Position numbers and translations under genes: made by a program
Source of the DNA: an uncultured Gammaproteobacteria bacterium
GTDB taxonomy: Bacteria > Pseudomonadota > Gammaproteobacteria > JAGOUU01
Direction: 5' to 3'
Assembly: GCA_964609155.1 (NCBI GenBank)
Contig: CAZSRF010000007.1
Coordinates: 839 to 64,838, forward strand
DNA: 64,000 nucleotides
Notes under the pieces: model-generated
What the model was told of the DNA's origin: nothing
The model's input: the letters and a program-made list of their open reading frames with translations, nothing else
The model's database searches: none
Shown: positions 21,734 to 21,917 of the stretch, in pieces
How positions within the stretch are numbered: the first letter of the stretch is position 1
Layout: the number at the start of each line of letters is the position of its first letter

Positions 21734-21917
21734 AATACAAGCACCAATATTGTATGTGTTCACGTAGTATTGTCATCTCGGTCAAGCCCAGTGAAACTGG
21801 GCGCAGAACCGAGATCTATTTATAATAGATCCCAGTTCTGCGCGCTTTGCGCTTGACTGGGATGACAAAATTCGAGATCGGATGAACACTTACCCAATAT
21901 TTACTGATGCTTGTATT
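21734..21917. repeat. ~184-bp imperfect palindromic (MITE/REP-like) element between rpmA and obg
   Basis: Nested inverted repeats: 21734-21763 vs 21883-21917, tgtcatc (21771-77) vs gatgaca (21861-67), and gcgcagaaccgagatctatt (21801-20) vs aatagatcccagttctgcgc (21824-43, 18/20). Confidence 0.75.

What the first reader, a model, noticed from the sequence alone, without database searches (positions are those of the whole stretch)
21734..21917. Long palindromic element inserted inside the conserved rplU-rpmA-obg operon
The 264-bp rpmA-obg spacer is dominated by a ~184-bp imperfect palindrome with nested arms: 21734-63 vs 21883-917, tgtcatc vs gatgaca, and a 20-nt inner arm pair matching 18/20 around a 3-nt loop. 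There is also a small internal hairpin (cccagt-gaa-actggg). If transcribed with the operon it would form a very stable RNA hairpin between rpmA and obg. That would make it a potential attenuator, RNase processing site or transcript stabiliser that uncouples obg from ribosomal-protein expression. It resembles MITE, REP or RPE-type elements, but I cannot assign it to a named family.
Basis: seen in the sequence. Interest (0 to 1): 0.5.

Follow-up and report, generated by a model that had tools for sequence, protein, structure and literature searches.

The report
Small mobile palindrome inside rpmA-obg terminator
The long palindrome between the ribosomal gene rpmA and the GTPase gene obg is a 142-base non-coding mobile element that landed in the loop of an older hairpin; it belongs to a small, unnamed repeat family and is an ordinary kind of feature, though neatly documented here.

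Summary
The 264-nt rpmA-obg spacer (genes on the minus strand) folds far better than shuffled sequence (-90.9 kcal/mol, z = -10).

The palindrome has three layers:
- **Older hairpin.** Its outermost arms are a hairpin with a U-rich tail that the three closest relatives also carry at this position.
- **Insertion.** A 142-nt element (21752-21893) sits in that hairpin's loop. It has 11-nt inverted ends (GTAAGTGTTCA) and a perfect 8-bp flanking direct repeat.
- **Conserved core.** A 99-nt core is built from two inverted hairpin units of about 45-51 nt.

The relatives (Obg 93, 79 and 76% identical) lack the insertion. Removing 150 nt restores a spacer colinear with the nearest relative's.

The core recurs at unrelated intergenic sites:
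- two more degraded loci in this window;
- a pncA-pncB spacer, an rplT-pheS spacer, an infC-rpmI spacer and a convergent gene pair in metagenomic contigs.

Cores are 81-94% identical, the arms only 34-72%. The unit hairpins show compensatory changes.

It is best read as a MITE with IS66-like ends (GTAA..., 8-bp duplication) around a REP-like doublet, similar in layout to Coxiella QMITE2. No named family matches. Any regulatory effect on obg is untested. Moderate-to-low interest.

The parts
22245..22556 (-). rplU (ribosomal protein L21), first gene of the cluster
   Evidence: Pfam Ribosomal_L21p, E = 2.9e-39.
21958..22221 (-). rpmA (ribosomal protein L27)
   Evidence: Pfam Ribosomal_L27, E = 2.5e-37.
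20677..21693 (-). obg (Obg/CgtA GTPase)
   Evidence: Pfam GTP1_OBG, E = 9e-58, plus MMR_HSR1.
21902..21917 (-). 5' arm (in the transcript sense) of the older rpmA-obg hairpin, AATACAAGCATCAGTA
   Evidence: Homologous in position and sequence to the 5' arm of the simple hairpin in the 93% relative L027.
21894..21901 (-). Direct repeat AATATTGG, rpmA-proximal copy (putative target-site duplication)
   Evidence: Perfect 8/8 direct repeat abutting both inverted ends (D5).
21752..21893 (-). The inserted 142-nt element (MITE-like). The rpmA-proximal end may lie up to 11 nt further out, at 21904.
   Evidence: Absent from three relatives. Removing it plus one repeat copy restores colinearity with L027. 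It folds at -68.2 kcal/mol, z = -12.
21883..21893 (-). Terminal inverted repeat, GTAAGTGTTCA (rpmA-proximal end)
   Evidence: 10 of 11 complementary to 21752-21762 (I17). Similar ends, GTAA(G/A)TGTTCA, occur in other copies.
21752..21762 (-). Terminal inverted repeat, TGAACACATAC (obg-proximal end)
   Evidence: I17.
21770..21868 (.). Conserved 99-nt core: two inverted hairpin units joined by a short AT-rich palindrome (CTATT-ATA-AATAG)
   Evidence: Model R1 scores 119 bits here and 102-110 bits in L003, L024 and L008. Cores are 81-94% identical, arms 34-72%.
21824..21868 (-). Hairpin unit X (TTGTC-ATCCCAGT-CAA-GCGCAAAGCGC-GCAGA-ACTGGGAT-CTATT)
   Evidence: Model R2, 68.6 bits. Local stems are supported by compensatory changes.
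21770..21820 (+). Hairpin unit Y (same design with a larger apical hairpin, GCCCAGT-GAA-ACTGGGC), inverted relative to X
   Evidence: Model R2, 75.1 bits.
21744..21751 (-). Direct repeat AATATTGG, obg-proximal copy. It also supplies part of the 3' arm of the older hairpin.
21720..21743 (-). Remainder of the 3' arm (TGCTTGTATT) and the U-rich tail (TATTTTTTTATATT) of the older hairpin
   Evidence: Aligned with ...TGCTTTTGTTTATTT of L027. The terminator role is an inference; the consensus scanner did not call it.
21749..21776 (-). Promoter-like match facing obg: -35 ATGACA (end of the core), 16-nt spacer, -10 TACAAT (element end plus repeat)
   Evidence: 10 of 12 matches. The number of such matches in the region is not above the shuffled expectation, so this is only a lead.
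34208..34286 (+). Second, decayed doublet of the same family, between two pilin-like genes
   Evidence: BLAST 80% over 45 nt. Model R2 gives 57.2 bits for the first unit and 14.5 bits for the degraded second unit.
19595..19624 (+). Solo, shortened unit TTGTAATCCCG-GCGCCTAG-CGGGATCTATA, just after the rpsT stop and facing the convergent DOT1-like gene
   Evidence: Model R2, 19.7 bits, E about 1e-3.

Best explanation
A 142-bp non-autonomous transposable element (a MITE) inserted into the apical loop of a pre-existing hairpin between rpmA and obg, in this lineage only.

**Anatomy of the element**
- Imperfect 11-nt inverted ends, GTAAGTGTTCA.
- An 8-bp duplication of the AT-rich target, AATATTGG.
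- A strongly conserved 99-nt interior made of two REP-like hairpin units in inverted orientation. Together these can fold either as two local hairpins or as one long branched hairpin.

**Shown**
- The insertion is lineage-specific.
- The flanking direct repeat is present.
- The family is dispersed at unrelated loci.
- The unit hairpins keep their pairing through compensatory changes.

**Inferred**
- It was mobilised in trans by a DDE transposase of the IS66 type, because IS66 ends begin GTAAGCG and make 8-bp duplications.
- Because the insert is self-folding, the two arms of the old stem are still brought together directly upstream of the U-rich tail. The old terminator or attenuator probably still works.
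- rplU-rpmA transcripts would then end in, and read-through transcripts would contain, a very stable structure of about 190 nt.
- The net effect on obg expression is probably small.
For: **Presence and absence**
- rplU-rpmA-obg is syntenic in relatives with Obg 93, 79 and 76% identical. Their spacers are 127, 107 and 119 nt, against 264 nt here, and they have no match to the element.
- Each relative has a simple A-tract/stem/U-tract hairpin in the spacer.
- Deleting 21752-21901 (150 nt) gives a 114-nt spacer that aligns end to end with L027 (88 identical positions). It folds into a single 15-bp hairpin at the same place.

**Ends**
- The inverted ends match 10 of 11 (I17).
- The flanking 8-mer repeat is perfect.
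- Comparable flanking repeats occur in other copies: L003 TATAATTC/TTTAATTC; L024 TTGTTTATTA/TTGATTATTA; L008 CGTAAAAT, 8 of 8.

**Other copies at different loci**
- L003/L015, pncA-pncB spacer. The closest relative, L077, has these genes 1 nt apart.
- L024, rplT-pheS spacer.
- L008, a convergent gene pair.
- A one-unit short form in L024, between infC and rpmI.
- Two degraded loci in this window.

**Structure**
- Model R1 scores 102-119 bits on all full copies.
- On nine units, 98% of cells pair and 6 of 11 pairs have changes on both sides; 0 of 500 shuffles reach this.

**IS66 features from the literature**
- The inverted repeat starts GTAAGCG and the direct repeat is 8 bp (PMC11946415).
- The ISPsko1 inverted repeat is GTAAGCGTCCGG... 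(PMC12888890).
- IS66 members in Paracoccus make 8-bp direct repeats (PMC3281130).
Against: - No transposase of any kind was found among the 40 ORFs of the window scanned with Pfam, so no autonomous partner is known.
- The ends are poorly conserved between copies (34-72%) while the interior is 81-94% identical. This is the reverse of what a recently active MITE usually shows.
- The short copy in L024 has no clean flanking repeat at the same boundaries. Its left flank (AGTAAATGTTGG) resembles the window's left flank (AGTAAATATTGG), so the true left end may lie 11 nt further out, or the target is sequence-specific.
- Only a handful of copies were found in 596 Gb of reference genomes and a large metagenome collection. 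That search needed an exact 20-mer.
- The terminator role of the older hairpin is read from the sequence; the consensus scanner did not flag it.
Confidence: 0.7

Rival explanations
1. The mobile unit is the hairpin doublet itself, a REPIN-type element moved as single-stranded DNA by a REP-associated tyrosine transposase. On this reading the outer arms and direct repeats are incidental.
For: - The core is two inverted imperfect-palindromic units of about 45-51 nt.
- The units also occur singly (L024 7081-7129; window 19595-19624).
- The local hairpins covary.
- The core is much better conserved than the arms.
Against: - The arms outside the core are homologous between copies at unrelated loci, so they travelled with the core.
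- Four of five copies have flanking direct repeats of 7-8 matching bases, which Y1-type transposition does not make.
- No GTAG or CGTC head is present (read directly from the units; family definition in PMC3733652).
- No Y1 transposase gene is in the window.
Confidence: 0.12
2. The structure is kept by selection as a cis-regulatory RNA for the operon: an attenuator, an RNase III site or a 3'-end stabiliser that sets the rpmA:obg expression ratio. That would make it an exapted element rather than a passive one.
For: - It is transcribed with the operon if there is read-through.
- It is extremely stable.
- The core is conserved with compensatory changes across genomes whose intergenic DNA is otherwise unalignable.
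- Four of seven family loci lie beside ribosomal-protein or translation genes.
Against: - The nearest relatives manage without it.
- Copies occur in both orientations relative to transcription: the form carrying the small GCGC hairpin first lies on the coding strand here and in L024, and on the opposite strand in L003.
- Pairing is Watson-Crick on both strands, with no bias for one strand.
- No Rfam family matches.
- There are no expression data.
Confidence: 0.12
3. The element supplies a new outward-facing promoter for obg: -35 ATGACA from the end of the core and -10 TACAAT formed at the junction. This would let obg be transcribed downstream of the hairpin's 5' arm and so escape termination.
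For: - The match is 10 of 12 with a 16-nt spacer, pointing at obg.
- Read directly, the same ATGACA is followed 16-17 nt later by a 4-of-6 match to the -10 hexamer in L024 and L008.
Against: - The number of promoter-like matches in the region equals the shuffled expectation (4 found, 4.9 expected).
- AT-rich flanks make -10-like hexamers common.
- It has not been tested.
Confidence: 0.1
4. A chance palindrome or a local duplication-inversion with no relation to anything else.
For: None beyond the AT-rich, repeat-prone context.
Against: - z = -10 to -12 against shuffles.
- Copies 81-94% identical occur at four unrelated loci in other organisms.
Confidence: 0.01

Closest known systems
QMITE2 of Coxiella burnetii (Wachter et al. 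2018, PMC5896051)
   Same: - Similar layout and size class: QMITE2 is 150-190 bp, this family 130-162 bp.
- Terminal inverted repeats, and variable direct repeats of 7-11 nt.
- Intergenic or 3'-UTR location.
- Occurs as a full-size form with inverted ends and direct repeats, and as small forms that are just the inner REP-like palindrome.
   Different: - The inner palindrome of QMITE2 is a GTAG-type REP and an IS1111 target. The units here have no GTAG or CGTC head.
- Sequence homology could not be tested, because no C. burnetii chromosome is available in these tools.
- A BLAST of the element against all PLSDB plasmids found nothing.
IS66-family insertion sequences and MITEs derived from them
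   Same: - Ends begin GTAAG (GTAAGTG and GTATGTG here, against the family's GTAAGCG).
- 8-bp target duplication (PMC11946415, PMC12888890, PMC3281130).
   Different: - No tnpA/tnpB/tnpC genes nearby.
- Only about 8 of the first 10 end bases match a published IS66 inverted repeat.
- The interior is a REP-like doublet, which is not described for IS66 ends.
REP / BIME / REPIN elements (E. coli, Pseudomonas)
   Same: - Short imperfect-palindromic units found as singlets and as inverted doublets of about 100 nt.
- Extragenic, often between co-directional genes and at 3' ends.
- Able to form either local hairpins or one long hairpin.
   Different: - No GTAG or CGTC tag and no RAYT gene seen.
- The full-size copies carry extra inverted ends and flanking duplications.
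- Apparent copy number is low (three loci in 64 kb).
Correia elements (Neisseria) and ERIC (Enterobacteriaceae)
   Same: - Imperfect palindromes of 100-160 bp inserted in transcribed intergenic regions of operons. From my own knowledge, these can change mRNA processing, stability or promoter activity.
   Different: - Correia elements duplicate TA and have 26-bp inverted ends with an IHF site; here the duplication is 8 bp and I saw no IHF consensus.
- No sequence similarity.
- Different host lineage.
   Same: Small palindromic repeats in an AT-rich genome that is probably host-associated.
   Different: RPEs are typically inserted in frame inside protein-coding genes. All seven loci here are intergenic.

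Membership tests
MITE (generic) | Short (under about 500 bp), non-coding, with terminal inverted repeats | tested here: met
   142 nt; ends match 10 of 11 (I17); no ORF of 40 aa or more lies within the spacer 21694-21957.
MITE (generic) | Flanking target-site duplication | tested here: met
   AATATTGG, 8 of 8, in the window. 7-8 of 8 in L003, L024 and L008. Not clean in the short L024 copy.
MITE (generic) | Several dispersed copies, and empty sites in relatives | tested here: met
   Seven loci in four organisms. The site is empty in three relatives. pncA and pncB are adjacent in L077.
MITE (generic) | A related autonomous element with the same ends | not testable with these tools
   No transposase in the window. 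The source genome is not in the collections.
IS66-derived element | Inverted repeat starting GTAAGCG | tested here: inconclusive
   GTAAGTG and GTATGTG here; GTAAGCT, GTAAATG and GTTAATG in other copies. Family feature taken from PMC11946415 and PMC12888890.
IS66-derived element | 8-bp direct repeats | tested here: met
   family feature from PMC11946415 and PMC3281130.
IS66-derived element | Interior derived from the ends of a known IS66 member | not tested
   No ISfinder library is available.
REP / REPIN | Imperfect-palindromic unit occurring as singlets and as inverted doublets | tested here: met
REP / REPIN | GTAG or CGTC tetranucleotide head | tested here: not met
   Units start TTGTCATC...; no GTAG or CGTC at the stem base. 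Definition in PMC3733652.
REP / REPIN | Associated RAYT (Y1 transposase) gene, and no target duplication | tested here: not met
   Flanking repeats are present. No Y1_Tnp hit among the 40 window ORFs scanned. The rest of the genome was not seen.
QMITE2 (Coxiella) | 150-190 bp, inverted ends, 7-11-nt direct repeats, full-size and small REP-like versions | tested here: met
   130-162 nt; direct repeats of 8-10 nt; short versions exist. Compared with PMC5896051.
QMITE2 (Coxiella) | Sequence homology to CbsR16 / the GTAG REP | not testable with these tools
   The sequence is not given in the paper's text or in the supplements held. No hit in plasmids.
Any Rfam RNA family | Covariance-model score at or above the gathering threshold | tested here: not met
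   No hits in the whole window. The best sub-threshold hit is 24.5 bits to a plant miRNA hairpin (gathering score 95), which is spurious.
Intrinsic terminator (the older hairpin) | GC-containing stem followed directly by a U-run | tested here: inconclusive
   Stems of 11-17 bp with U-rich tails are seen in the window and three relatives. The consensus scanner called none of them.

The most novel reading that the evidence does not exclude
The hairpin unit of about 45-51 nt (TTGTC-ATCYCRGT ... ACYGRGAT-CTATT) may be a host-retained REP-like module of an unsampled, probably intracellular gammaproteobacterial lineage. On this reading it is kept by selection for its structure and placed preferentially at the hairpins that end ribosomal-protein and translation genes: rpmA, rpsT, rplT and infC-rpmI account for 4 of 7 loci. 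It would then act as a transferable terminator or RNA-stability cassette rather than as a merely selfish element. That would explain why the interior is 81-94% conserved while the transposon ends decay.
Probability: 0.15. Interest if true: 0.5.

Novelty: new member of a known kind. Interest (0 to 1): 0.3.

Why it matters
**Annotation.** The feature should be recorded as a repeat or mobile element, not as a conserved riboswitch-like leader of obg.

**Biology.**
- It is a clean natural 'before and after' pair, with the empty site in a relative whose Obg is 93% identical. It shows a structured element dropped into the loop of an intercistronic hairpin of an essential, widely conserved operon.
- That makes it usable for testing how much structured insert a terminator hairpin tolerates.

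**The family.**
- The two covariance models built here (the doublet and the single unit) can be used to census the family once complete genomes of this lineage exist.
- Its layout, IS66-like ends around a REP-like doublet, mirrors Coxiella QMITE2. This suggests such composites may be more general among host-associated gammaproteobacteria.

Tried and rejected
- **Exact-protein look-ups** of the window's Obg and L27 found no source contig.
- **Reference-genome scan** with a 20-mer from the long arm gave 7 hits, only one of them real (L003).
- **Metagenome scan** gave 19 hits, 3 real (L008, L015 = L003, L024).
- **Viral-contig scans**: two scans gave 43 hits, all chance by model R1.
- **Rfam**: nothing at gathering threshold. 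Permissive settings gave only spurious miRNA and sRNA matches.
- **BLAST against PLSDB plasmids**: no match.
- **Second empty site at rplT-pheS**: the relatives' spacers are too diverged to align.
- **Empty site at pncA-pncB**: the relative has the genes 1 nt apart, which shows absence but gives no alignable target.
- **Loose end-pair regex**: swamped by chance hits in AT-rich DNA.
- **Long-range fold of the core as the 'true' structure**: it is the minimum-energy fold (-57.8 against -46.6 kcal/mol). But the 8-mer stems pair better locally and covary only locally (98.4% and 2 compensatory pairs, against 89.1% and 0). I therefore treat the core as two units that can also zip into one hairpin.
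- **QMITE2 sequence**: could not be obtained from the paper or its supplements.
- **Maouche et al. 2016** on the E. coli rplU-rpmA-obgE operon is not held. Only a review's summary of co-expression could be cited (PMC9545696).
- **Transposases**: none of any kind in the window.

Full report
**1.

The three genes lie on the minus strand: L21 (22245-22556), L27 (21958-22221) and Obg (20677-21693). The spacer is 21694-21957, 264 nt.

As RNA of the transcribed strand the spacer folds at -90.9 kcal/mol, against -47.6 +/- 4.3 for shuffles (z = -10). The other strand folds almost as well (z = -7.3).

**2. The palindrome has layers**

The closest Obg homologues in public data are 93% (L027), 79% (L028/L029) and 76% (L030) identical. 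All keep rplU-rpmA-obg, with spacers of 127, 107 and 119 nt. None contains the element.

Each relative's spacer has one simple hairpin with an A-tract before it and a U-rich tail after it. In the window, the outermost arms (AATACAAGCATCAGT ... ATTGGTGCTTGTATT, followed by TATTTTTTT) are the homologue of that hairpin.

Inside it lies a 142-nt insert, 21752-21893. Its ends are GTAAGTGTTCA / TGAACACATAC (10 of 11 complementary), and it is flanked by a perfect direct repeat AATATTGG (plus strand CCAATATT at 21744-51 and 21894-901; D5).

Deleting the insert and one repeat copy (150 nt) leaves 114 nt. This aligns colinearly with L027 (88 identical positions) and folds into a single 15-bp hairpin with a 4-nt loop at the same place. 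That is an empty-site reconstruction.

**3. The insert belongs to a dispersed family**

A 20-mer from the long inner arm found one true copy in about 185,000 reference genomes: L003, an uncultured gammaproteobacterial MAG. It found three in metagenomes: L015 (the same sequence as L003), L024 and L008.

The family loci are:
- pncA-pncB spacer in L003. The nearest relative, L077, has these genes 1 nt apart.
- rplT-pheS spacer in L024.
- A convergent gene pair in L008.
- A one-unit short form in L024, between infC and rpmI.
- A decayed doublet in the window, between pilin-like genes (34208-34286).
- A 30-nt solo unit in the window, just after rpsT (19595-19624).

The window and L003 copies are both 142 nt long. 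Cores are 81-94% identical, the arms outside them only 34-72%. Four of the five copies with arms have flanking direct repeats of 7-8 matching bases at the ends of the arms.

**4. Structure of the core**

The 99-nt core is two units of one design, in inverted orientation: TTGTC, an 8-mer, 3 nt, a variable small hairpin, 5 nt, the complementary 8-mer, then CTATT.

The minimum-energy fold zips the two units into a branched long hairpin (-57.8 kcal/mol). The alternative, with each unit folded on itself, costs about 11 kcal/mol more.

The substitutions between copies nevertheless follow the local pairing:
- On the four doublets, the 8-mer stems pair in 98.4% of cells with 2 compensatory pairs locally, against 89.1% and none for the long-range pairing.
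- On nine units, 98% of cells pair and 6 of 11 pairs have changes on both sides; 0 of 500 shuffles reach this.

The units are not independent samples, so this is supportive rather than proof. Pairing is Watson-Crick on both strands, and copies occur in both orientations relative to transcription. This points to a constraint at the DNA level, or one that applies to both strands, rather than to a strand-specific RNA.

**5. What kind of thing it is**

Short, non-coding, inverted ends, target duplication, dispersed copies and empty sites together describe a MITE.

The ends begin GTAAG and the duplication is 8 bp. The literature gives this as the signature of the IS66 family: an inverted repeat starting GTAAGCG with 8-bp direct repeats (PMC11946415), the ISPsko1 repeat GTAAGCGTCCGG... 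(PMC12888890), and 8-bp repeats for IS66 members in PMC3281130. The match is partial and no transposase is at hand, so this is a lead, not a membership.

The interior behaves like a REP doublet (BIME or REPIN). However, it lacks the GTAG/CGTC head (PMC3733652), and the full-size copies do have duplications.

The nearest described parallel in layout is Coxiella QMITE2: 150-190 bp, inverted ends, 7-11-nt direct repeats, an inner REP, and full-size and small versions (PMC5896051). Homology to it could not be tested. Rfam has nothing.

**6. How it probably works here**

The older hairpin with its U-rich tail looks like an intrinsic terminator or attenuator after rpmA. This is inferred from the sequence and from its positional conservation in three relatives; the simple scanner did not call it.

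In E. coli, obgE is co-expressed with L21 and L27 from one operon (review PMC9545696, citing Maouche et al. 2016). From memory only, that paper also reports a terminator after rpmA; I could not check this.

The insert went into the loop. Because it folds on itself (-68.2 kcal/mol, z = -12), it should hold the two old arms together directly upstream of the U-run. I therefore expect the old function to be largely kept. The extra structure would sit at the 3' end of rplU-rpmA mRNA and inside read-through transcripts.

A promoter-like match created at the obg-proximal junction (-35 ATGACA, 16 nt, -10 TACAAT) is no more than chance would give in this region. All of this is inference; there are no RNA data.

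**7. Limits**

- The source genome is not in the collections, so copy number is known only for 64 kb (three loci).
- The collection scans needed an exact 20-mer, so diverged copies were missed.
- The left boundary is uncertain by 11 nt. The short L024 copy shares AGTAAAT(A/G)TTGG with the window's left flank. This means either a sequence-specific target or a longer end.
- The host lineage is unnamed. The closest labelled hits are MAGs called only 'Gammaproteobacteria bacterium'. Neighbouring eukaryote-like genes (DOT1, PP2C, protein kinase) suggest a host-associated lifestyle.

**8. Verdict**

This is a real, well-delimited, lineage-specific insertion of a small mobile palindromic element into an intercistronic hairpin. 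It is a new member of a known kind (MITE/REP-like). The regulatory reading is untested. Interest is moderate to low.

Noticed in passing
window 20316-20561: A perfect tandem duplication of a 123-nt unit (2.0 copies, 100% matches) lies between obg and the DOT1-like gene. It includes the first 33 nt of the DOT1-like ORF (start at 20348, minus strand) and its upstream region, and looks very recent.
   Followed up: partly
window 19595-19624: A solo, shortened unit of the same repeat family (TTGTAATCCCG-GCGCCTAG-CGGGATCTATA) sits just after the rpsT stop, between convergent rpsT and the DOT1-like gene. It may serve as their shared terminator hairpin.
   Followed up: partly
window 34208-34286: A decayed doublet of the family lies between two pilin-like genes (33534-34088 and 34416-34970). 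It is followed by a small GC hairpin and a T-run.
   Followed up: partly
L024 7062-7151 (minus strand): A one-unit 'short form' of the element, with GTAAATGTT / AACAAATAC ends, lies between infC and rpmI, only about 0.8 kb from the full copy between rplT and pheS. Counting the window's two loci at rpmA-obg and after rpsT, four of the seven family loci seen lie beside ribosomal-protein or translation genes.
   Followed up: partly
window 19620-20348 (minus strand); also L028 11069-11782 and L030 11158-11889: A DOT1-like histone-methyltransferase homologue (Pfam DOT1, E = 2.4e-14) lies directly downstream of obg. Relatives carry PP2C or a protein kinase nearby. Such eukaryote-like genes suggest an intracellular, Legionellales-like lifestyle.
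   Followed up: no
window 4653-4841: Three in-frame 63-nt tandem repeats (71-89% identical) lie inside the large OEP-family (outer-membrane efflux) ORF at 4463-6595.
   Followed up: no
L003 3627-3852 versus L077 1633-1635: pncA and pncB are 1 nt apart in the closest relative but 226 nt apart in L003. Only about 150 nt of that is the element, so another 75 nt or so of spacer is unexplained.
   Followed up: no
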